From assembly GCA_030390025.1 (NCBI GenBank), contig CM059431.1, forward strand, positions 103,046,001-103,110,000: a stretch of DNA of 64,000 nucleotides. The letters are read 5' to 3'. Under the pieces are notes generated by a model. The model was not told where the DNA came from. It did not search any database and saw only the letters and a list, made by a program, of their open reading frames with translations. This DNA is from Squalus acanthias. Its lineage: Eukaryota. Below, in pieces: positions 2,258 through 62,478 of the stretch. Both the position numbers and the translations under genes were made by a program. Positions within the stretch are counted from its first letter, which is position 1. Each line of letters opens with the position of its first letter.

Positions 2258-3103
2258 GGGCTGGATTTTCCAAGCCCCGAGGAGGCGGGCATGGAGGCGG
2301 GACAGCCGGTAAACTCGGAGAAAGTGGGGGCGGATGGCAAACCCGCCCCCATCCCACCTCCGTGCCCTTTTGCCAGGAGGCGGGAAGATGTGCAACTTCG
2401 GGTCCCGTCTCCTGGAGGCGGGAAAGGCACTTAATCCTTTTAACTGCCTGTTAACAGGTAGTTAACAGGCAGAAAAAAGGATTAGTGCCATTTTACCTTC
2501 ACAGGTGAAAGCTTCCCGACCTCGGAGAACCCCGTCGGGTTGGAGGAGACGTGGAGGAGGTCTGCGGCGGTCGGAGGCACCTGGAAGTAAGATGTAGAGG
2601 TGAGTGATGGGTGCAAGTGTGGAGTGGTAAGTATGTAAGGTGAGTGATAAGTTTTAAAAAATGTTCACTTACCTTGTTTTCTTCCTACAGCCTTTAGCCA
2701 CGGTGGATCGGGAGAGCCAACATCCTCCTTGTCAATTTCACAGACTGGCTGTTGGAACCTCCGTTCCAATAGTCATGTGAAATTTACAAATTTGAAATGT
2801 TTGATGAGTCCTGAACACAAGGAGCCATCAAACTAAAGAGAATGTCAATGTTTGACAGCTTCATAGAGCTGTCAAACGCTGACATTTCTTCTTTCAAGAA
2901 GTCTTGACAGATAGCACATCTGACGTTGACGTGCTCTGTCAGTGACTTCCTCCCTAATTGGCCTGCTGAGCCCGCAGGGCGGGCTTAACAAGCTCAATCA
3001 GGGGAAAATCCTTCTGAATGGTCAGGCGAGGATGGAGGCGGGACATTGACACGACAAGCAGCAGTCCCGCCTCCAACTTGCCTCCATTCACAAAATCCAG
3101 CCC
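2258..3103. mobile_element. Harbinger-type MITE (~845 bp)
   Basis: Perfect TIRs GGGCTGGATTTT...AAAATCCAGCCC. Flanks AAA/AGA (imperfect 3-bp TSD). Closely similar to 56110-56905. Confidence 0.8.
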
Positions 3104-15696: not shown

Positions 15697-16802
15697 AACT
15701 TGGGGAAATGACTTGACACTGGGATAGTTCCATTGCCCTAAGCTCAGTACAAAGTCTTAGCCGATTCGGCAAATTCAGAGAGAGAGGTGGAGGAATTATA
15801 GGAAATCTCTGTCCTAAGGAAGATTATATAGTTCAGCACAGGTAGAAGCAAAGTTTAAGGCAGATCATCAGAAATGCAATCAAAGGGAACAAAAGATTGA
15901 AGTAAATTCATAAAGGAGAGGCCTGAGAGAGGCTTAACTCAAAGGAGATAAACGGAAGAGATAAAGAACTAATGGGGCACAGGTCTAAATCAAAAGCAAA
16001 AAGGAGTGAAATAGAAAAGTAAGATTTGAGGAGGAGTGGAAGAGAGAAGGAAGAGTAAGATAGAAGTCATGAGGTGTGTTCTCCGTGGGATGTTTAAGAA
16101 GGAAAATGGCAGGTTTATTAGATGGTCTAAAACTGCAAAATTACCAACAGATCTATAACCTTAAAGGAAAGATAATGGGTTGAGCGAGAAAGGTACAAAC
16201 GTTTACGAGGACAGACATAAGCGACAGTATTATTGAGGCAAAATGGATAGTATTAAACAACAACAACAATAACTTGCATTTATATAGCACCTTTAACGTA
16301 GTAAAACATCCCAAGGATGCTTCACAGGAGCGATTATCAGACAGAATTTGACACCGAGCCACATAAGGAGATATTAGGGCAGGTGACCAAAAGCTTGGTC
16401 AAAGAGGTCGGTTTTAAGGAGCGTCTTAAAGGAGGCGAGAGAGGCGGAGAGGTTTAGGCAGGGAATTCCAGAGCCTAGGGCCCCCGGCAGCTGAAGGAAC
16501 GGCTACTTGGTAAGTGAGTCACCACAGATTAGTGAAAGGTCCAGGGTATCACTGGACCTTGAGAGTGAAGCATGAGAGACTGGAGCTGGAGGACAGGGCA
16601 ACCAAGGGTGGGGTTTTGGAAACAAGTGCTGTGGGAAATGAACAAAATGGGGGTTATGGATACGCTAAGTTTGGTAAAAGAAGAAAAATAGGTAAGAAAG
16701 TCTGCAGACAGAGCTCACCAGATAGATTATATTAACAAACAGATACCCAGCCACTGACCACAACTGATGAATGAAACAAAGGGGGGGGCAATTTTAACTT
16801 GG

Positions 16803-17190
16803 AACATAAGAACATGAGAAATAGGAGCAGGAGTCGGCCATACGGCCCCTCGAGCCTGCTCCGCCATTCAATAAGATCATGGCTGATCTGATCTTGGCCT
16901 CAACTCCACTTCCCTGCCCGCTCCCCATAACCTTTGACTCCCTTATCGTTCAAAAATCTGTCTATCTCCACCTTAAATATAGTCCATGACCCAGCCTCCA
17001 CAGCTCTCTGGGGCAGAGAATTCCAAAGATTCACCACCCTCTGAGAGAAGAAATTCCTCCTCATCTCCGTTTTAAATGGGCAACCCCTTGTTCTGAGACT
17101 ATGCCCCCTCGTTCTAGATTCCCCCACCAGGGGAAACATCCTCTCAGCATTTACCCTGTCAAAGCCCCCCTCAGAATCTTATAAGTTTCA
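16803..17190 (-). mobile_element. CR1 LINE 3' fragment
   Basis: ORF 16900-17139 MFPLVGESRTRGHSL..WNSLPQRAV. Confidence 0.88.
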
Positions 17191-17717
17191 ATAACTTAAC
17201 TCGCTCACCAGGAAATCCACGGGATTGGGAGGAATGCCGGTTTGCCATCCCGCCCATTGAAGTCAGTAATATCGGGCGGGGTGTAAAAACCAGCGTTCCA
17301 CTCGATCTCGTGAGTTTTCGACCTGGCGAGTTAGGACAAAAATTAGCCCTCAAGGTCTCAGAAGAGGAAATAGCTAGAAAACACACAGCTTGAACTAAGA
17401 AGCAGTTTACAGGTCACAGGAAGCTTGTAATCATACTGGACTTACGAAAGCATTACTTGTAGGATGGTGAGTTGCTTACCTGGAGCAGTACATCCTGAGG
17501 AAAGAAGGGAGGGTAAAATCAGGTGGGGCGTAAATCCAGCGTTGCACCCGATCCTGTTAGTTTCCCGATGGATGGGTTAGGTTAAAATTAGCCCCCTATG
17601 TTCCCTGCTGCAGTACAGCGTGCACCTGAAGCGGGGAAAGAACGGTCTTATCACGCTCGACATGCAGCTCAATCATGGTTTAACAGAGAAGACTCTTTGT
17701 GGGCTTTGAGATTTTAA

Positions 17718-17995: not shown

Positions 17996-19021
17996 CGATT
18001 ACAAGTTAATTCCAATCAGGCCAGTAATGGTCTCTTCAAGTAAAGAGTAAAGAATTCAAAACTTTATTTACAGAATATAAAATATATTTACAGTCTCCAA
18101 AGTCATTTGGCAATTAATTTTCTCCCCAATTTTGTTGTCTTCATTTTGCTTTTTTAGAGTTCTCTTTTGTCTCCAAAACAAACCTGGGTTAGAAATGTTA
18201 GGCTCGACGGTGCTTCATGGCATGCTGTGCTGTATATATGACATACCTTTATGTTAAGGGTTCCCATCCAGTTTATCTTATATGTATGTAGACTTGGCAG
18301 ACCTTCAGTTGCCTGATTTATGTGCAGTTTTTTATTGTCAGTACCATTAGCATAACGGTTATTGGCCACTGTCACTTTACAATCCTAAAGGGGGTACATG
18401 AACAGAGAGACCTGGGGGTATGTGTGCACAAATCGTCGAAGGTGGCAAGGCAGGTTGAGAAAGCGGTTAAAAAAGCATACGGGATCCTGGGCTTCATAAA
18501 TAGAGGTACAGGGGTAAAAATTCAGTTGGTTGCGCCTCCCGTTAGTGCCTTAAGAGGGCGCTAATGGGGCGCAAAGCCGATAACGCCCGGGCGCAGCGAT
18601 GTTTGCGCCGCTCGGGAACTTAACTAGAGATTGTGCGGCGGCGCGAAACTTTACCGCTGCGACCACCTGCGCGCGCAGTTTGTGACGTCATTCCATGGTG
18701 CAACGCCCTTGTGGCGCCCCGGAGCGGAAATTGAGTGGCGCCCCCTGCCTTACCGCCTGGCGCATCCAACGACTGGAAGACTGGAACGCTATCAATCGCT
18801 GTGGGGCTGGGGGGGGCGCTATTTAAAGGGGGCCTCTTCCTGTCTTTTTCTGTGGTTGACATTTTTGCACCACTCGTTCTGAGAGAGAGAGAGAGATTCG
18901 GAGAGAGAGAAAGAGAGACTTCTGCATTGACTCAACGCTTTGTGAAGTAGTTTTGCCTACTGATCCTAACTTCGCTGGTACTTTGGTTGCTGTCCTTCAT
19001 TACTTTGCTTGCAAATAGACT

Positions 19022-20181
19022 ATGGGGGCTGCACTGATTGGGGGCGTCGTCCTGCTCCAGCTGAATCGGAGGACACAGAGACGCAGAGAGAGAGTGGCAA
19101 TGATGGCCAGACGGAGGAGGGCCAACAGGCGTATCTACAGGAGAGCTTACCCTCCCAGGGTATATCGTGAACAGCTCTCCTACATTCATATGTCTGAGGA
19201 GCTGTGTTTGCGAAGGCTGCGATTCAGCAAGGAGGTGGTCACTGAGCTCTGCCACCTGCTGCAGCCAGATCTGCAGCCTCAACTGAGGTCCAGGACGTCT
19301 CTGTCGGTGGCAGTGAAGGTAACAGTGGCTCTCAACTTCTACGCTATTGGCTCATTTCAAGCTGCTGCTGGGGACCTCGCCAATATCTCCCAGTTCGCGG
19401 TGCATTGCTGCATCCGGCAGGTCACAAATGCCCTCTTTAAAAGGAGACGAGAGTTCATCTCTTTCCCCATGACCCCAGACAAGCAGCGTGACCGCGCTCT
19501 GGGCTTTGCGAGGATAGCGGGCTTGCCCATGTGCAGGACGCCTTTGACTGCACGCATGTGGCTTTGCGTGCTCCGCATGAGAATGCCGAGGAATTCCGGA
19601 ACAGAAAGGGGTTCCATTCCTTGAATGTTCAGTTGGTCTGTGACCACAGACAGCTGATACTCGCTGTCAATGCCCACTATCCTGGCAGCTGCCACGATGC
19701 TTTTATCCTGTGCCAGACTACTGTGGCAGAACTTTTCGAGGCACCGCATCAGCCAGTTGGTTGGCTTCTCGGGGACAAGGGGTATGCATTGAGCACCTGG
19801 CTGATGACACCGCTCCGTACGCCCAACACCCCTGCTGAGCTGCGGTACAATGAGAGCCATCAAGCTACCAGGAACATAATTGAGCGCACAATCGGCGTGC
19901 TGAAGCAACGGTTCCGCTGTCTCGACCATTCTGGAGGAGCCCTGCAGTACTCGCCTGAGCGAGTATCCAACTTCGTAGTTGTGTGCTGCATGTTGCATAA
20001 CATGGCAATCGTCAGGACCCAGCCAATGCCACCAGGCCTTGGAGCACCATCAGAGGAGGAGGAGGAAGAGGAGGAAGAGGACGAGGAGGATGATCATCAG
20101 CAGCACCAAGGCGGGAGGGCGGTCCACAATGGTGAAACTGCAAGGGCCGTCCGTCAATGGCTGATAGCAAGCCGCTTCTAG
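19022..20181 (+). pseudogene. Harbinger (HARBI1-like, DDE_Tnp_4) transposase with one frameshift
   Basis: ORF 19022 (..VTVALNFYAIGSFQ..ISQFAVHCCIRQVTNAL..GFARIAGLP) joins ORF 19531 (VQDAFDCTHV..RNRKGFHSLNVQLVCD..YPGSCHDAF..LLGDKGY..YNESHQATRNIIERTIGVLKQRFRCL..CCMLHN) across a 1-nt deletion at ~19529-19530. Catalytic D, D and E are retained. Confidence 0.92.
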
Positions 20182-20493
20182 GGCCCCTGCTGTGGAAATG
20201 GCTTCTGCCATTGCTAACAACATCAATGAACCCAGCACGCAACCCCTAAGCCGGCCAAGGCACCAATAATTTCAAACACCAACCATGTATATTTTGAATA
20301 CAGAAACTTATTTATTTTACAAACTCTGTGTGTGTCAATTCCTCATGACAAACTCATAGAAATAAACACAAAAAAACAGTCAATAACATAACTGGTTCTC
20401 ACAACCTGGAGATAATGTCCAAAACACTAAACAAAAGTTGGACCATGAACCTCGGCCTTTAATAAAAAAATGACCAGCATTTTGTCACACCTC

Positions 20494-22421
20494 CTACTTT
20501 TTGCCCTTCGAGGGTGATCTCCTTCCCTTGCGCACTTCCCCCCTTCTAACCCTACTGCTCCTCCGTAATGGGACCTCAGTGGCTGCAGCAAGGCTGGTGG
20601 AAGGCTGCTGCTCGTCAGACCCTGACACTGCAGATGCCCCTGAAGGACGGCCTCGACCAGTTCTGGGCCTGGAGGGCCCGGCTGCAGACTGCACCAACTC
20701 TGCATGGGCGGCAGCAGTCTGTCCTACAGGCGGTGGCAAGTGCAGTGGAGAAGTGACAGTGTTGGCAGCAGGAATGCTGTCATCGTGAGAGAGGACAGCA
20801 ACTCCCTGCTCGCCCGACACACTGGCACTCCCACGGGGCAGCACTTCAGCATCCGGAGCAATCTGCTGGAGAACAGATTGCTGGCCTGCTGCAGCGCGGT
20901 GAGAGCCCCGGGGACATGTGAACGAACCATCGAGGTTGGCAGCAGTCTGTGCTCGCGTGGCCTCAATCTGAGTCTGCATGAGAGCAGTCAGAGATGGGAT
21001 CACGGCAGCCAGTGACTGAATTGCAGCACTAAGCGTTAGTGTGGCATCCGCCTGTGCTACAGCGAAGTGCTCCACACTCCTTGCCAGTGACTCAATGCAT
21101 TCGGGCACCCTTCCCACTGCACCCATGAGCTCAGTGTGCATGCCCACCGCCTGGGTGTTCATTTCTGCGATCAGCCGCTCCTCCTCTGCGTCCATTGCAG
21201 TAGGAGTCTCTGGCCTACTCTTCCTCTGGGGAGAAGGCCCCCGTTCTTCTCTACCCCCATGGTGTTGCTGCAGCCCGCTGGGTCCTGGAGCTTCACCCTC
21301 ATCAGACCCTTCCCCCCTGCTCCCCTCCAGGGAAGGCGTGTTCCCAGTGTGGGCATGGGCTTCCTCGGGAGAGGGTGGCACTGATGCTCCGGCTTCCTCT
21401 TCCTCCTCGGCTGCAGCTTCACTCCCAGTGGCAGCTTCAGGGCCCGTCTCCTCAGCTGGTGAATCACCATCTGAAAGCAGGGAGGTACAAGAGTGGCTTT
21501 AGCGTGAGGACAGGGTGGCAGTAAGGGAGGAATAAGTGCAGCGAGTTAGCAAGTTGGATTGAAAGTGTCAAAGGCTGGTGTTGTGAGGGACAAGTGGAAG
21601 GACAGAGGACAAAAAGGTGATGACCTTACCATTGCTGTCCAGAACGGGGTCGGCGTCTCCAGTGGCGACGGGACCGATCACCCGGCTTGCCACAATCCTG
21701 TGGACGCGCTCCTCAAGATCGCTGAGGGGTTGCAGCTGAGGCCGCCCTCCACCTGTCCGTTGCTGCTGTCTCCGATTATGCGCCAGCTTAGCCTGTAAGA
21801 AAAAGGACAGCATCTGAGTAAATATACAGCCATGGTCTTGCCTGATGTGCCTCCCATAGGTGAATAGCCCTTACTGTATGCAGCCATGGTCTTGCCTGAT
21901 GTGCCTCCCATAGGTGAATAGCCCTTACTGTATACAGCCATGGTCTTGCCTGATGTGCCTCCCATAGGTGAATAGCCCTTACTGTATGCAGCCATGGTCT
22001 TGCCTGATGTGCCTCCCATAGGTGAATAGCCCTTACTGTATGCAAAGTGTGGAATGTGTGTGTGTGTTTCATGAAAGGGCCATAGGTGTTGGATGAGTGT
22101 TGTGCATTGGGGTTTTAAGACCCTCTGGCCATAGAGTGAGGTTGAGATGGAGGGATGGAGAGGTATTGAGAAAAAGCCACTCACCCTGACGACCCGAGTG
22201 AGGTCGTTGAACTTTTTGCGGCATTGAGTATGGGTCCTGGGCACCATGCTCCTGGAGGAGACGCTCTGAGCCACCTCCCTCCACACTCTTCTGTACTCGC
22301 GTGGCAAAGGCCTCCTGCCACTCTCAGGGAAGAGTATACATCTTCTGCGCTCCACCGCGCCAACCAGAGCATCCAAGGCCCGCTCGGTGAAGCGCTGAGC
22401 TCGTTCTCTCACCCTCTCCAT
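20494..22421 (-). CDS. Harbinger Myb/SANT-like (trihelix) DNA-binding protein, 3 exons, 458 aa predicted
   Basis: Exon 1 22421-22185 (MERVRERAQRFTERALDALVGAVE..WREVAQSV..RTHTQCRKKFNDL, donor GTGAGT). Exon 2 21792-21630 (AKLAHNRRQQQRTGGG..LSDLEERV, acceptor ttcttacag, donor GTAAGG). Exon 3 21470-20494 (acceptor ctttcag). Phases 0 and 1 join in frame, 1377 nt in total. Confidence 0.85.
21823..22044. repeat. 54-bp tandem repeat, ~4 near-identical copies, in intron 1 of the Myb gene
   Basis: Unit cagccatggtcttgcctgatgtgcctcccataggtgaatagcccttactgtat(a/g) starts at 21827, 21881, 21935 and 21989. Confidence 0.97.
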
Positions 22422-23779
22422 CCTTGGCAGCAAAATGGATTCACAGGTCTCTCCAGGCCGAGATTCAAGGCTGCAATGAGCAGGGTGTGGCTGGGGAGCA
22501 AGTTGGCCCCCCCCGCTTTAAGAACTGGCCGGCGCCAGTGTGTCTGTGTTCCCTCGCTAACTGGCAGCAGCTGCGCTGCGCTCGCGCGCTGAGTTAGCGC
22601 CTCACTGCTCGGCCTTTGCACCTTAAGACAGGTGTGCAGCGCCTGATTTAGCGCTCCACTCACCTCCCGGGGCGGTAAAAGTGAAGTTTCCAGTCAGTGG
22701 CGATAATTAGCGCCAGGCGCTAATATTTGCGTCCAGACGATATTTGCGCCCCAAATGGGGCGCGACCTAATTTTTCCCCCATAGAGTACAAAAGCAAGGA
22801 AATTATGATGAACATTTTATAAAACATTGTTCCGGCCTCAACTGGAGTATTGTGTCCAATTCTGGGCACCGCACTTTAGGAAGGATGTGAAGGCCTTAGA
22901 GAGGGTGCAGAAAAGATTTACGAGAATGGTTCCAAGGATGAGGGACTTCAGTTACATGGATAGACTGGAGAAGCTGGGGTTGTTCTCCTTAGAGCAGAGA
23001 AGGTTGAGAGGAGATTTGATTGAGGTGTTCAAAATCATGAGGGGTCCAGACAGAGTAGATAGAGAGAAACTGTTCCCATTGGCAGAAGGGTCGAGAACCA
23101 GAGGACACAGATTTAAGGTGATTGGCAGAAGAACTAAAGGCGACATGAGGGAAAACTTTTTCACGCAGCGAGTGGTTAGGATCTGGAATGCACTGCCTAA
23201 AAGGGTGGTGGAGGCAGACTCAATCGTGGCTTTCAAAAGAGAATTGGATAAGTACCTGAAGGAAAGAAATTTACAGGGCTACGGGGAAAGGGCGGGGGGA
23301 GTGGGACTAGCTGAAGTGCTCTTGCAGCGAGCCGGCACGGGCTCAAGGGGCCGAATGGCCTCCTTCTGTGCTGTAACCATTCTATGATTCTATAAGGCAT
23401 TCGGTAACAGCAGAAATCACATCTACTCATGTAGTTCACTCATATATATATGCATTATGTGTTGGTGAAAATATTTAATTCAAGAGTTTACTGAGCCCAG
23501 AAAGCCTTAGGCATTGGCAGTTAGTTAGAGGAAAGGAAATGCTTGGGGCTGTGAACATTGGCCATCCCTCCACCTTCACCTCACAGCGACTGCTGTGTGA
23601 GAGATTTCAGTGGAGCTGTGCTTTCTGAGAGCACTTTACATCAGTGGATAAAATTGAAAACAAGTGGTATTAAGGCCAACTTTATGTTGGAGTAGACACT
23701 GCCAGCAACTACTGCTGGAATCTGTGATGGGAAATTGTAACTAATTTGGCTTTCGTGTCACCTAACCCTAACCCTAACC

Positions 23780-24391: not shown

Positions 24392-24725
24392 GGGGGGACA
24401 ATTGGGTTGGTTTGTGCCTCTCGTTAGCGCCCCCGGGGTGCGAATCCCCGAGCGCAAAATTCAGCGGGAGGTTAGCGGCGGCGGTAACCGGTAACGCCCC
24501 CCCGCCGCTGCGGCGCCGGCGATGATGTCATCGGCGTGCGCAGCACCCCGCTCGCGCCCCGGCCGCAAACCTCCCTTGCGCCCCCTGACCTATCACTGGA
24601 CGATATGTGCGACAGGATCAGGGAGTGGTTTGGCGGCGGCGCTACGACTGAATTTATGGCGGCGTTAAAGTTAGCACCCTGGCGACGTTAGTGCCCCAAA
24701 ATGGGCGCCCCCCAATTTTTCCCCT
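24392..24725. mobile_element. Harbinger MITE (334 bp) related to the autonomous element's ends
   Basis: TIRs GGGGGGACAATTGGG / CCCAATTTTTCCCCT. Perfect TSD AAT at 24389-24391 and 24726-24728. Subterminal ggttggtttgtgcctctcgttagcgcc resembles 18524-18549. Confidence 0.82.
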
Positions 24726-25514
24726 AATATGCCTTAACAGAAAATTCAGGAAATGTTTTATTTCAAGGTGCAGCTGAAGGGAATAGTTAGCAAGTCTATA
24801 TAGAACATTCTGACCACTTGCTTACAGACACATTTATATATATATAATGGGTTAAAAATATTTTTAAAAGAGGCATTTAATGTATTTATGTAATCAAACC
24901 GATGATTTATGCCCAGTCTTCTGACAGCATATGAATTATACATAATGTTCTGACTCTTTATGAATTGTTAGAGACAGTGTCTGGAAATATTTTTAAAGAA
25001 ATATGAGTTTATGTACTTCTAAAATGCATTATGTATGAATAATCTGAACAAGATGAAAAATGCATTTCATTTCAATGTAAAACTGTACCCTGGTATTGTC
25101 ATTCACAAGATAAGACTATCACTGTTAGTAGAGCATTATGAATGTCACTTGGGAAAGGATCATATCAATCCTCCAGTCTTTAAACTTCACTACAAGAGAT
25201 ACGGGCTGTATTCTATCAGAATGTTAAATTACCTACAGTAGGAGCTGTATTCCTCATTTTGTGCAAGAAGTACAATATCTGCATGCAAATAGGATATTTG
25301 CAGCTCCCCATTGGGGAAAATCACTTAAGACAACCTCGGTCTAAGAAAGTCATATTCCCGAGTGTTCAAATGTTCTTCTTTCAGTCTGCTGTGTAAAAAG
25401 GCCTTGTTCTGGACTGAACATTCGATTCTTCGCCCAGCAGACACAGCCTTGATACCCGACGTACAGTAATGAAAACCTCCACAGGCCAGAAACAGAAATG
25501 AGGGGTTGGCTTTT

Positions 25515-33944: not shown

Positions 33945-34576
33945 GGGCTGGATTTTGATACTGGGGCGGGTTGGGGTCGTGTCATCCACTTTTCGTGTTA
34001 TCCACCCGACTGCAATTGGATGTGGGAAATTGATGCAATTTTCACCTAATTGGGCAATTGAGTTCCAGCATGTGGGAACCCCTGAACCAATTAGTGTTTT
34101 CAGTCTGAAAGTCGCCTCTGATGATGCCATCATTGCTGCTGCATTGAAGGTCTGCAAAGACTGCCTGGCCTTTGCTGTGAGAGGACCTGGATGCAAAATG
34201 AGCAGCAGCAGCCCTAAGTCTGCTCCCAGATATTTTTACACCACCACTCCCAGATATGCATCCCCATAGTCGGTCAGTCAGTCAGTCAGGTTTCACATTC
34301 GTGGTTCAGAACAGGCGTGTTTCACGTAGAAAAAGGGTTAAAATCACAAAGGCCTTTCAAAATGGCATTATAGAGGCAATTTAGTGCTTGTTAAGGGCCT
34401 TAACAGCCTATCCCGCCTCTTAAAGGCTGGACGGAGGCGGGACCAGCAGACACGATTTAATGAAAATTGCGTGGAGGCGGGATGGAGGCGGACTTGTGCC
34501 CGCCCGCCAGTTTTCGCATTTTTAACCCCCCACACGCCTCCAAACCCGCCTCCACGGGTCAATGAAAATCCAGCCC
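33945..34576. mobile_element. Harbinger-type MITE with the same TIRs but a different interior
   Basis: GGGCTGGATTTT...AAAATCCAGCCC. No TSD (TCA/TAT). Confidence 0.65.
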
Positions 34577-53755: not shown

Positions 53756-54332
53756 ACGACATGGTCTACCTGTAGCCACTGCAGGAATTGGGAACTAATG
53801 TGTCTCTTAGTATCGAGTTCACTCTCTCCTGCATGACCACCACTAAAAATCTATCTCTATCCATTTTGTTGCCTCCTCACATGCTGCTGTTTTCTTAGTC
53901 TTCCACCTCAAGTGTTTAATAACTTAAAAAACAGAACTTGCATTCAGATAGAGCCTTTCATTACCTCAGGACGTCCCAAAGCGATTTACAGACAATGAAG
54001 TACTTTGTTTTTTGAAGTGTAGTCACTGCTGTAATGTAGGAAATGCGGCAGCCAATTTTGCACACAGCAAGCTCACAAAAATAGCAATGTGATAATCTGT
54101 TGTAGGGATGTTGGTTGGGGAATAAATATTGGCCCCAGGACACTGGGGCAGAATTCCACAGTAAACTTACTGGCTGGAATTTCTTTCGGGAAGGCAGGTT
54201 GGGGGTGGCGGGGTTCTGAGGTGGGGCCCTGCTGAATGTGAGGCCTCAGATTCCCTCCCGCAGCCGGCCAGCTTGAGAGGCCGGCTGACTGCGGGCGGCT
54301 GGGCCTCAGTTGTGAGGAGTCGGTCTGGGGGA

Positions 54333-56065
54333 GGGATCGTGGGGGGGTCAGGGATCGCGGGGGGATGGGGATCGCGGGGGGGTCAGGGATCGCGGGGGGA
54401 TGGGGGATCGCGGGGGGATGGGGGATCGCGGGGGGATGGGGGATCGCGGGGGGATGGGGGATCGCGGGGGGATGGGGGATCGCGGGGGGATCGGGGATCG
54501 CGGGGGGATGGGGGATCGCGGGGGGATGGGGGATCGCGGGGGGGTGGGGGATCGCGGGGGGGTGGGGGATCGCGGGGGGATGGGGGATCGCGGGGGGATG
54601 GGGGATCGCGGGGGGGTGGGGGATCGCGGGGGGATGGGGGATCGCGGGGGGATGGGGGATCGCGGGGGGATGGGGGATCGCGGGGGGATGGGGGATCGCG
54701 GGGGGATGGGGGATCGCGGGGGGATGGGGGATCGCGGGGGGATGGGGGATCGCGGGGGGGTGGGGGATCGCGGGGGGGTGGGGGATCGCGGGGGGGGTGG
54801 GGGATCGCGGGGGGATGGGGGATCGCGGGGGGATGGGGGATCGCGGGGGGATGGGGGATCGCGGGGGGATGGGGGATCGCGGGGGGGTGGGGGATCGCGG
54901 GGGGATGGGGGATCGCGGGGGGATGGGGGATCGCGGGGGGATGGGGGATCGCGGGGGGATGGGGGATCGCGGGGGGATGGGGGATCGCGGGGGGATGGGG
55001 GATCGCGGGGGGATCGGGGATCGCGGGGGGATGGGGGATCGCGGGGGGATGGGGGATCGCGGGGGGATGGGGGATCGCGGGGGGATGGGGGATCGCGGGG
55101 GGGGGTCGGGGATCGCGGGGGGATGGGGGATCGCGGGGGGGTGGGGGATCGCGGGGGGGTGGGGGATCGCGGGGGGATGGGGGATCGCGGGGGGATGGGG
55201 GATCGCGGGGGGGGTGGGGGATCGCGGGGGGGTGGGGGATCGCGGGGGGATGGGGGATCGCGGGGGGATGGGGGATCGCGGGGGGATGGGGGATCGCGGG
55301 GGGGGGTCGGGGATCGCGGGGGGATGGGGGATCGCGGGGGGGTGGGGGATCGCGGGGGGATGGGGGATCGCGGGGGGGGGGTCGGGGATCGCGGGGGGAT
55401 GGGGGACCGCGGGGGGATGGGGGATCGCGGGGGATGGGGGATCGCGGGGGGATGGGGGATCGCGGGGGGATGGGGGATCGCGGGGGGATGGGGGATCGCG
55501 GGGGGATGGGGGATCGCGGGGGGATGGGGGATCGCGGGGGGGGGTCGGGGATCGCGGGGGGATGGGGGACCGCGGGGGGATGGGGGATCGCGGGGGATGG
55601 GGGATCGCGGGGGGATGGGGGATCGCGGGGGGATGGGGGATCGCGGGGGGATGGGGGATCGCGGGGGGGATGGGGGATCGCGGGGGGGATGGGGGATCGC
55701 GGGGGGATGGGGGATCGCGGGGGGATGGGGGATCGCGGGGGGATGGGGGATCGCGGGGGGATGGGGGATCGCGGATGGATTGGGGACCGCGGGGGGTTGG
55801 GGGATCGCGGGGGGATGGGGGATCGCGGGGGGATGGGGGATCGCGGGGGGATGGGGGATCGCGGGGGGTTGGGGGATCGCGGGGTGATGGGGGATCGCAG
55901 TGGGATGGGGGATCGTGGGGAGTCAGGGATCGCGGGGGGCTCGGGGATCGCGGGGGGGTCAGGGATCGCGGGGGTGATCAGGGATCGCGGGGGGGTCGGG
56001 GATCGCGGGGGGGTCGGGGATCGCGAGGGGGTCTGGGATCGCTGGGGGGTCGGGGACCGTGGGGT
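54333..56065. repeat. G-rich 18-bp tandem repeat (GGGGGATCGCGGGGGGAT)n, roughly 95 copies
   Basis: Directly visible. Homogeneous centre, degenerate edges. Confidence 0.97.
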
Positions 56066-56109
56066 GGGGGGTCGGTCAGGATGCGGGGTGGGGGGAGGGG
56101 AGGGTCGGC

Positions 56110-56905
56110 TGCTTTGTCGTGTCAATTTTCCGCCTCCATGCTCGCCTGACCAACCAGAGGGATTTTCCCCTGATTGAGCTCGTTAAGCCTGCCCTGCGGG
56201 CGCAGCAGGCCAATTAGGGAGGAAGTCACTGACAGAGCACGTCAACGTCAGACGTGCTATCTGTCAAGACTTCTTGAAAGAAGAAATGACATCGTTTGAC
56301 AGCTCTGTGAAGCTGTCAAACACTGACATTCTCTTTAGTTTGATGACTCCTTGTGTTCAGGACTCATCAAACTTTTCAACTTTGTAAATTTCACATGACT
56401 GCAGGAATGTAGTCTGTGAAATTGACAAGGAGGATGTCGGCTCTCCCGATCCAGCGTGGCTGAAGGCTGAAGGCTGCAGGAAGAAAACAAGGTAAGTGAA
56501 CACTTTTTAAACTTATCACTCACCTTGCATACTTACCACTCCACACTTGCACCCATCACTCACCTCTACACCTTACTTCCAGGTGCCTCCGACCGCCGCA
56601 GACCTCCTCCACGTCTCCTCCAACCCGACGGGGTTCTCCGAGGTCGGGAAGCCTTCACCTGTGAAGGTAAAATGGCACTAATCCTTTTTTCTGCCTGTTA
56701 ACTACCTGTTAACAGGCAGTTAAAAGGATTAAGTGCCTTTCCCGCCTCCAGGAGACGGGACCCGAAGCTGCACATCCTCCCGCCTCCAGGCAAAAGGACA
56801 CGGAGGCGGGATGGGGACGGCTTTGCCATCCGCCCCCACTTTCTCCGAGTTTACCGGCTGTCCCGCCTCCATGCCCGCCTCCTCGGGGCTTGGAAAATCC
56901 AGCCC
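56110..56905. mobile_element. Harbinger-type MITE, one end replaced by the satellite
   Basis: Close reverse complement of 2258-3060. Ends in AAAATCCAGCCC. Confidence 0.8.
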
Positions 56906-60993: not shown

Positions 60994-62478
60994 GCAAATG
61001 GTATGTTGGCCTTTATTACAAGAGGATTTGAGTATAAGAGTAAAGACGTCTTACTGCAATTATATAGGGCCCTGGTGAGACCACACCTGGAGTATTGTGT
61101 ACAGTTTTGGTCTCCTTACCTAAGGAAGGATATACTTGCCATAGAGGGAGTGCAACGAAGGTTCACCAGACTGGTTCCTGGGATTGGGGGGATTGTCCTA
61201 TGAGGAGAGATTGAGTAGACTAGGCCTATATTCTCTAGAGTTTAGAAGAATGAGAGGTGATCTCATTGAAACATACAAAATTCTTACAGGGCTTGACAGG
61301 GTAGATGCAGGGAGGATGTTTCCCCCTGGCTGGAGAGTCTAGAACCAGGGGTCACAGTCTCAGAATAAGGGGTCAGCCATTTAGGACTGAGATGAGGAGA
61401 AATTTCTTCACTCAGAGGGTGGTGAATCTTTGGAATTCTTTACCCCAGAGGGCTGTGTAGGCTCAGTTGCTGAGCATATTCAAGACAGAGGGCTGGATTT
61501 TGCCAGCCCTGGGGAGGCGGGTTTGGAGGCGGGGCTGCCAGGAAAATGGCAGAATTTTGGGGCGGGTGCCCAACCCGCCCCCAACCTGCCTCTGTACCAT
61601 CTTGCCAGGAGGCGGGTAGCTGTCCCGCGCTGCGTTCCGTCTCCTTGGAGGCGGGAAGGGATTACAGCCACTTAACTGCCTGTTAACAGGTAGTTAACAG
61701 GCAGATAAGAGGATTATCCCCATTTTGCCCACACAAGTGCGGGCTTCCCGAAGGCTCTGAAACCTGCCAGGGTCTGCGGGGTCGGAGGGGTGCAAAAGTG
61801 CGCTGTGAAGGTAAGTGATGGGTGCACGTGTGGAGAGGTGAGTATCTGAGCTAAGTGCAAAGTGTTAGAAAAAGTGTACTTACCTTTGTTTCTTCCTGCA
61901 GGCTTCAATCGGTGGGTCTGCGGAGAGTCTCGCACCTCCGCGGCAGAGATGACAGATGGCCGTTGTATTCTCCAATGCAACAACCATCTAATTTTTGCAA
62001 AAGTAAGAGGTTTGATGAGGTCTTGAATTCAAGAACTCATCAAACTACAGAGAATGTCAGTGTTTGACAGCTTCACAGAGCACTCAAACGATGACAGTTC
62101 ATCTGTCAAAATTTTTGACAGATGAAGCGTCATATGTTGACGTTCTCTGTAACCGGCTTCCCCTTAATTAGCCTGCTAAGCCTGCTGGGCGGGCTTAACA
62201 AGGTCAATCAAGGGAAAATAGCGTGGGTTGGCCAGAAGTTGATGGAGGCGGGACTGAAACCCGACAAGTGGGAGTCCCGCCTCCAAAAGCTCCCCATTGG
62301 CAAAATCCAGCCCAGAGATCGATGGATTTTTGAATATTAAGGGAATCAAGGGATATGGGGATAGTGCGGGAAAGTGGAGATGAGGTAGAAGATCAGCCAT
62401 GATCTTATTGAATGGCGGAGCAGGCTCGAGGGGCCAAATGACCGACTCCTGCTCCTATTTCTTATGTTCTTATGTTCT
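60994..62478 (+). mobile_element. CR1 3' fragment split by MITE 61490-62313
   Basis: [36 protein letters not shown]. The sequence ttcaagacaga|gatcgat rejoins across the MITE. Confidence 0.9.
61490..62313. mobile_element. Harbinger-type MITE (824 bp) with perfect TIRs and TSD
   Basis: GGGCTGGATTTTGCCA...TGGCAAAATCCAGCCC (16-bp perfect TIR). TSD AGA at 61487-61489 and 62314-62316. Confidence 0.9.

What the first reader, a model, noticed from the sequence alone, without database searches (positions are those of the whole stretch)
18511..22780. Near-intact two-gene PIF/Harbinger transposon
Seen: TIRs, 3-bp flanks (ACA/ATA), clean interruption of a CR1 ORF, a transposase with one frameshift, a convergent Myb/SANT gene, high CpG content, and AATAAA signals on both strands between the genes (+20361, +20461; - at 20311-20316). 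Established: Harbinger needs both the transposase and the Myb-like protein, and vertebrate HARBI1/NAIF1 derive from such pairs. Inference: a young family, possibly uncatalogued and potentially reconstructable as an active system.
Basis: partly seen in the sequence, partly recalled or inferred. Interest (0 to 1): 0.75.

Follow-up and report, generated by a model that had tools for sequence, protein, structure and literature searches.

The report
Shark Harbinger transposon, transposase frameshifted
This is a real, full-length cut-and-paste "jumping gene" from an abundant family in a shark-like genome whose cutting enzyme is broken by one missing letter; it is ordinary in itself, but its lineage seems to have given sharks and rays several permanent genes of their own.

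Summary
Confirmed: a 4,270-bp Harbinger-superfamily DNA transposon (12-bp TIRs, 11/12; 3-bp flanks ACA/ATA) inside a CR1-type LINE. It has a DD35E transposase (19022-20181, one 1-nt deletion near 19531) and a convergent, open, three-exon Myb/SANT gene (458 aa). The closest proteins are elasmobranch (best 70%). Public contigs show a very abundant family about 1-1.6% from this copy, plus a 6-7% subfamily; three contigs stop fitting exactly at the frameshift, so it is probably private to this copy or an assembly error. Not upheld: CpG is high only at the ends; "young" is unproven on the slow shark clock; splicing was not seen in RNA. A Harbinger has already been reconstructed (zebrafish Harbinger3_DR), Harbingers are reported in shark genomes, and this scan noted similar broken copies elsewhere in this genome. 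The target triplet fits none of the TWA/CWG/TNA subgroups. Side lead: the transposase nests (UFBoot 99) among several cross-order, species-tree-like, mostly catalytically dead "putative nuclease HARBI1" proteins of sharks and rays that are not HARBI1: candidate elasmobranch-specific domestications, synteny untested.

The parts
18345..18510 (+). 5' part of the interrupted CR1-type LINE (C-terminal coding region)
   Evidence: 79-85% to other LINE copies in the window; frame continues across the junction
18508..18510 (+). left target-site copy ACA (probably mutated from ATA)
   Evidence: two other CR1 copies in the window read ATC and ATT (Ile) at this codon
18511..18522 (+). left TIR, 12 bp
   Evidence: 11/12 to right TIR; similar ends on the MITE at 24392-24725
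18523..19021 (+). CpG-rich left subterminal region and likely transposase promoter
   Evidence: CpG o/e 0.99 over 18511-19000; GGCGCTAA-type motifs occur only at the element's two ends and in the MITE; promoter role inferred
19022..20181 (+). Harbinger transposase, about 386 aa, DD35E triad intact (D176, D252, E288), 1-nt deletion near 19531
   Evidence: three contigs of two other runs stop fitting at 19531
20311..20316 (-). candidate poly(A) signal of the Myb gene
   Evidence: use not shown
20361..20466 (+). two candidate poly(A) signals of the transposase gene (20361, 20461)
   Evidence: use not shown
20494..21470 (-). Myb-like gene exon 3 (acidic and low-complexity region, basic C-terminal tail)
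   Evidence: open and in phase with exons 1-2; no Pfam hit
21630..21792 (-). Myb-like gene exon 2
   Evidence: GT-AG borders; two homologs align without a gap across the exon 1-2 joint
21823..22044 (.). about four tandem copies of a 54-bp unit inside Myb intron 1
22185..22421 (-). Myb-like gene exon 1, Myb/SANT-like DNA-binding domain
   Evidence: PF13873 E 4.2e-10
22422..22768 (-). CpG-rich right subterminal region and likely Myb promoter
   Evidence: CpG o/e 0.78; promoter role inferred
22769..22780 (-). right TIR, 12 bp
22781..22783 (+). right target-site copy ATA
22784..23394 (+). 3' part of the interrupted CR1-type LINE, with its own frameshift near 22815
   Evidence: 73-81% to other window copies
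24392..24725 (+). 334-bp non-autonomous element (MITE) with related ends and a perfect AAT duplication
   Evidence: 73% over 64 nt to the right end and 63% over 120 nt to the left subterminal region

Best explanation
A full-length copy of an abundant elasmobranch Harbinger-superfamily DNA transposon that inserted by cut-and-paste into an older CR1 LINE and duplicated the triplet ATA. In a working copy the Myb-like protein binds the ends and partners the DDE transposase, which excises the element and inserts it at a 3-bp staggered cut (mechanism taken from the literature, not shown here). This copy cannot make transposase if the deletion is real, but it keeps both ends and an open Myb gene, so it could supply Myb protein or be moved in trans, as could MITEs such as 24392-24725. 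The family expanded in more than one wave and was probably inherited vertically by related sharks. Shown: anatomy, homology, abundance, empty sites. Inferred: host group, private origin of the frameshift, age, trans-mobilisation.
For: TIRs, triplet and restored LINE frame. Pfam domains. Open three-exon Myb gene, first joint backed by homologs. The 17 best hits and the 33 best are all elasmobranch; best 70% over 305 aa. Summed contig depth in run X1 is 2e5-1.8e6 across the element against about 15 in unique DNA at 24916-25400 (not a copy number). 18 of 23 listed runs hold at least 0.6 of the words, some with only about 100 million letters. Long contigs differ from this copy by 25/2194 (X18), 23/1826 (X8) and 14/978 (X10) letters, leaving out two contigs per run that differ by 5-8%. 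Three contigs stop at 19531 with 9-13 letters left over. Two-protein mechanism: PMC9179366 introduction.
Against: The triplet is imperfect and is not TWA, CWG or TNA. No splice joint at either Myb intron is among the 15 of 394 joints shown, and contigs of both putative RNA runs cross intron borders unspliced. No insertion at 19531 is listed in the indel table; the evidence is only where contigs stop. No genome was held, so copy number, intact copies and a target logo were not measured. Two runs with label D from the same study as a holder contain 0.00 of the words, so the labels are not a reliable host range.
Confidence: 0.9

Rival explanations
1. This copy is in fact intact and autonomous; the frameshift is an assembly error.
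For: The lesion is one missing base; other contigs seem to lack it; the triad is intact; at three sites (19016, 19135, 19347) run X1 shows no contig with the window's letter.
Against: Three further residues beside the break depart from columns conserved in about 80% of elasmobranch homologs (L168, D173, F175); the left triplet has also changed; the copy is 1% or more from the dominant sequence; only about 55% of X1 was read, and it may be another individual.
Confidence: 0.12
2. The family is recently or currently active and may have moved horizontally between the organisms labelled A-G.
For: About 99% identity of long contigs in runs labelled B and G; 7 labels hold 0.6 or more of the words; horizontal transfer of Harbingers is documented.
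Against: The flanking CR1 and other host repeats also lay at 90% or more in the B and G runs, which points to related sharks or shark DNA in the sample; the transposase nests in an elasmobranch-only clade; the slow shark clock explains high identity; only 1 of 13 checked private differences is a CpG transition.
Confidence: 0.1
3. The locus is being domesticated: transposase lost, Myb gene kept by selection.
For: Myb gene open with canonical splice sites; the lineage seems prone to domestication.
Against: At about 1% divergence one open gene of two is expected by chance; TIRs and triplet are still present; the putative RNA contigs carry letters that differ from this copy.
Confidence: 0.03

Closest known systems
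Harbinger3_DR of zebrafish (reconstructed; seen through passages of PMC3016246 and the introduction of PMC9179366; primary paper not read)
   Same: Transposase plus Myb-like gene, TIRs, 3-bp duplication; 3 of 5 insertion sites in this window have C before and G after the triplet, as in its palindromic target.
   Different: Central triplet here is ATA (AAT and AGA for neighbouring MITEs), not CWG; TIR only 12 bp; activity untested; no sequence comparison was possible.
Elasmobranch 'putative nuclease HARBI1' gene models, above all the many divergent Pristiophorus japonicus copies
   Same: Same transposase clade; up to 72% identity over the trimmed core; 18 of 36 sawshark copies keep the DDE triad.
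   Different: None is above 73% to this copy, so the family itself is not in the protein collection searched; they are annotated as genes, not as transposons.
HARBI1 and NAIF1/MSANTD (domesticated vertebrate genes; PMC9392472, passages)
   Same: Same two protein families.
   Different: HARBI1 orthologs form a separate clade (UFBoot 100) only 40-42% identical to this transposase; this element is not their immediate sister.
Harbinger-Snek of sea kraits (PMC8437027, passages)
   Same: Abundant two-ORF vertebrate Harbinger with non-autonomous derivatives.
   Different: That one arrived by horizontal transfer; here the evidence favours a resident elasmobranch lineage. Sequences not compared.

Membership tests
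Harbinger superfamily (PHIS; as defined in PMC9179366) | DDE transposase of the Harbinger type | tested here: met
   PF13359 E 3.8e-39; D176, D252, E288 aligned with homologs; frameshifted in this copy
Harbinger superfamily (PHIS; as defined in PMC9179366) | second ORF with Myb/SANT-like domain | tested here: met
   PF13873 E 4.2e-10; 458-aa open gene
Harbinger superfamily (PHIS; as defined in PMC9179366) | terminal inverted repeats | tested here: met
   12 bp, 11/12, starting with G; shorter than the usual 25-50 bp but within the 5-1042 bp range of PMC4482050
Harbinger superfamily (PHIS; as defined in PMC9179366) | 3-bp target-site duplication | tested here: met
   LINE frame restored only when three bases are removed with the element; 2 of 3 bases match; perfect 3-bp duplications at 2 of 4 neighbouring MITE-like elements with clear ends
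Harbinger superfamily (PHIS; as defined in PMC9179366) | transposition that needs both proteins | not testable with these tools
   needs a cell assay
PIF/Harbinger group in the narrow sense (PMC4482050) | TWA target-site duplication | tested here: not met
   ACA/ATA here; AAT, AGA, AAA/AGA and TCA/TAT at other window elements
PIF/Harbinger group in the narrow sense (PMC4482050) | HTH motif in the transposase N-terminus | tested here: inconclusive
   no significant Pfam hit in the N-half, though it aligns with HARBI1 and homologs
NuwaI / NuwaII groups (PMC4482050) | CWG or C|TNA|G target | tested here: not met
   triplet is neither CWG nor TNA on either strand; the flanking C...G is present at 3 of 5 window sites and T...G here
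Pangu group (PMC4482050) | ANT duplication and second ORF without known motif | tested here: not met
   second ORF has a Myb domain; only the MITE at 24392 has an ANT triplet
HARBI1 gene | orthology with vertebrate HARBI1 | tested here: not met
   separate clade, 40-42% identity; element has TIRs and many copies
Catalogued Dfam/Repbase family | 80% or more identity to a deposited consensus | not testable with these tools

The most novel reading that the evidence does not exclude
The element is a near-intact, revivable member of an elasmobranch Harbinger lineage that was domesticated again and again: at least five conserved shark or ray genes, now filed as 'putative nuclease HARBI1' but not HARBI1 orthologs and mostly lacking a catalytic residue, derive from this lineage. 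Mobile and tamed versions could then be compared directly. The lineage may also use a relaxed A-N-W target triplet outside the described TWA, CWG and TNA groups.
Probability: 0.5. Interest if true: 0.6.

Novelty: new member of a known kind. Interest (0 to 1): 0.33.

Why it matters
The copy itself adds little: one more broken member of a known superfamily. It does speak to a gap named in PMC9179366, where Harbingers were not detected in elephant shark and other cartilaginous fishes were left to be tested. A two-gene family near 99% identity could be rebuilt as a second vertebrate Harbinger tool with a different target triplet. If the cross-order groups are true genes, sharks and rays hold an unreported set of transposase-derived genes whose mobile relatives are still readable, which makes the step from transposase to host gene testable.

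Tried and rejected
No genome is held for this window, so the copy search, intact-copy count and target logo are open. High CpG as a sign of youth: rejected except for the ends. Splicing: no joint at either intron among the 15 of 394 joints shown; contigs cannot show absence. Horizontal transfer: not supported, since host repeats accompany the element in the B and G runs; lack of cover at unique DNA in those runs is no evidence. No solved structure matched by sequence (best E 0.13, low-complexity). The Myb domain search gave 1 hit among 221 candidates. The look-up of earlier findings by sequence found nothing, so I cannot say that the other copies noted in this genome are the same family. The Squalomix preprint 10.1101/2025.06.08.657570 has 0 occurrences of PIF, Harbinger or HARBI in its main text; its supplements and those of the shark genome papers were not seen and may list such families. 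Searches for printed shark-specific Harbinger domestications showed no such title or abstract; the library lacks most subscription papers. The tree left out 29 of 174 proteins (26 under 280 aa, three set aside by hand); the tree used 55 chosen proteins plus the window's. No fold or complex was run: it would not change the verdict.
Full report
Observation. The element spans 18511-22780 (4,270 bp). Its ends match at 11 of 12 bases and the flanks read ACA and ATA. It sits in the C-terminal coding part of a CR1-type LINE (family label from recalled motifs; Pfam gave no hit). The LINE frame runs through the junction only if three bases are removed with the element. Two other copies in the window have an Ile codon there, so the target was probably ATA and the left copy has since changed. 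Joints skipping 4,273-4,278 bases at this place were listed for all four runs laid, as expected of LINE copies without the insertion. The host LINE has another frameshift near 22815. CpG o/e is 0.56 for the element, like the window (0.50, 0.54); only the ends are high.

Genes. The transposase runs from ATG 19022 to stop 20181 in two frames that meet near 19528-19533, a net loss of one base. The C-half matches PF13359 (E 3.8e-39). Read through with X, it is 386 aa with D176, D252 and E288, a DD35E triad. Three residues close to the break (L168, D173, F175) differ from columns about 80% conserved in elasmobranch homologs. On the minus strand three exons (22421-22185, 21792-21630, 21470-20494) with GT-AG introns of 392 and 159 nt give an open 458-aa protein with a Myb/SANT-like domain. 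A sawshark and a ray protein align without a gap across the first joint; the second joint rests on signals and phase alone.

Host and family. No genome was held. The 17 best hits and the 33 best are elasmobranch, most from Pristiophorus; the best is 70% over 305 aa. I infer a shark host. Of 23 runs listed, 18 from 10 studies hold 0.60-0.88 of the element's words; they carry 7 organism labels, three have none. A share of 0.60 equals about 1.6% difference. In the lay, summed depth in X1 is 2e5-1.8e6 over the element and about 15 in unique DNA; the tool warns that this is no copy number, so I take it only as very abundant. Long contigs differ from this copy by 25/2194 letters (X18), 23/1826 (X8) and 14/978 (X10); two further contigs in each run differ by 5-8%, a second subfamily. 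Two X18 contigs and one X8 contig stop fitting at exactly 19531 with 13, 13 and 9 letters left over, which suggests that the family does not share the deletion. No spliced joint was among those shown, and contigs of the putative RNA runs cross intron borders. X8 and X10 share letters at 18931, 18940, 18958 and 19349 that make up 0.2-3% of X1's depth and are absent from X18, a hint that one other locus or small subfamily supplies most of their signal.

Age. At 7e-10 per site per generation (95% CI 1.4-14.1e-10; PMC10587355, passages), 1.1-1.6% is 16-23 million generations, and 8-11 million at the upper limit. Of 13 private differences that I picked from the 40 of 307 rows shown, 1 is a CpG transition and 6 are transversions. 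The rate is from another species and some differences may be subfamily or assembly differences, but low divergence does not mean recent here.

Target. Four other TIR elements with clear ends lie in the window: triplets AAT/AAT (24392-24725, ends related to this element), AGA/AGA, AAA/AGA and TCA/TAT. None is TWA or CWG. C precedes and G follows the triplet at 3 of 5 sites, as in the Harbinger3_DR palindrome. Five sites from at least two families are a hint only. By the groups of PMC4482050 (passages) the element fails the TWA, CWG, TNA and Pangu definitions, so I file it under the Harbinger superfamily with a Myb-type second gene and leave the subgroup open.

Mechanism. From PMC9179366 (introduction read): the Myb-like protein binds the transposase and the ends, and both genes are needed. 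Applied here by inference, this copy is non-autonomous if the deletion is real, yet keeps ends and a Myb gene and could move in trans.

Phylogeny and side lead. In an IQ-TREE tree of 56 proteins and 291 columns (a FastTree of 146 gave the same groups) the transposase falls with sawshark copies in a clade (UFBoot 99) that also holds group C (Heptranchias, Mobula, Narcine, Chiloscyllium, Carcharodon, Scyliorhinus) and group D (Narcine, Mobula, Hypanus). Groups A (Pristis and four sharks in that tree) and A2 (four sharks) join at 99; B, E and F lie further out with weak support (63-73). HARBI1 is separate (100). Each group has support 100 and short branches, largely follows the species tree (Heptranchias in C does not), and shows one gene model per species in the clusters read, apart from isoform-like pairs. 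Ray-to-shark identity is 85-90% in A and 78-81% in C among the named full models, against a median of 51% among 36 sawshark copies. All rows of A2 (4), B (4), C (6), D (3) and F (2) lack at least one triad residue; A keeps the triad in 3 of 5 and E in 2 of 2. This pattern fits domesticated genes, but synteny, copy number and dN/dS were not tested, and slow evolution or old transposon families could mimic part of it. Searches (listings only) showed no paper on it; PMC9392472 (passages) has no mention of 'shark' and covers genes shared by jawed vertebrates.

Known context. PIF-Harbinger is listed for whale shark (PMC8455134, passage) and is the commonest DNA transposon type in grey reef shark (PMC12498223, passage); it was not detected in elephant shark (PMC9179366, passages). 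A reconstructed Harbinger is active in vertebrate cells (PMC3016246, passages). This scan has noted other broken full-length Harbingers in the same genome and a domesticated Myb gene (unchecked notes).

Verdict. Interest 0.33, most of it from the domestication lead and the odd target triplet.

Noticed in passing
proteins P0085, P0091, P0175-P0177 (A); P0095, P0096, P0180, P0181 (A2); P0010, P0012, P0185, P0187 (B); P0007, P0014, P0015, P0017, P0020, P0090 (C); P0004, P0006, P0190 (D); P0022, P0040 (E); P0021, P0196 (F): Seven cross-species groups of elasmobranch 'putative nuclease HARBI1' that are not HARBI1 orthologs, mostly lacking a catalytic residue: candidate shark and ray domesticated transposases.
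   Followed up: partly
proteins P0105, P0169, P0147, P0160 and P0044-P0048, P0051: Two further non-HARBI1 groups: coelacanth, turtle and caecilian proteins of about 350 aa, and a songbird group; some lack triad residues. They may be other domestications.
   Followed up: no
window 24392-24725: 334-bp MITE with ends related to the element and a perfect AAT duplication.
   Followed up: yes
window 2258-3103, 33945-34576, 61490-62313, 16784-17595; lone end at 56905: Further Harbinger-like MITEs, most with GGGCTGGATTTT ends; triplets AAA/AGA, TCA/TAT, AGA/AGA; the site at 33945 resembles the Harbinger3_DR palindrome outside the triplet.
   Followed up: partly
window 21823-22044: About four near-identical 54-bp units in Myb intron 1; the long contigs shown stop on either side, so the unit number in the family is unknown.
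   Followed up: partly
runs X8 and X10 on window 18931-19349: Two putative RNA runs with different organism labels share letters that are rare in DNA run X1: one expressed locus or subfamily common to both?
   Followed up: no
protein P0008: A sawshark gene model fuses a Myb domain to a Harbinger transposase (523 aa); may be a chimeric annotation or a real fusion.
   Followed up: no
window 54076-56182: A long G-rich, CpG-rich short-period tandem array (GC 70-78%, strong skew).
   Followed up: no
runs X13, X22, X23: Same organism label and study, yet shares of 0.61, 0.00 and 0.00: mixed or mislabelled material is possible.
   Followed up: no
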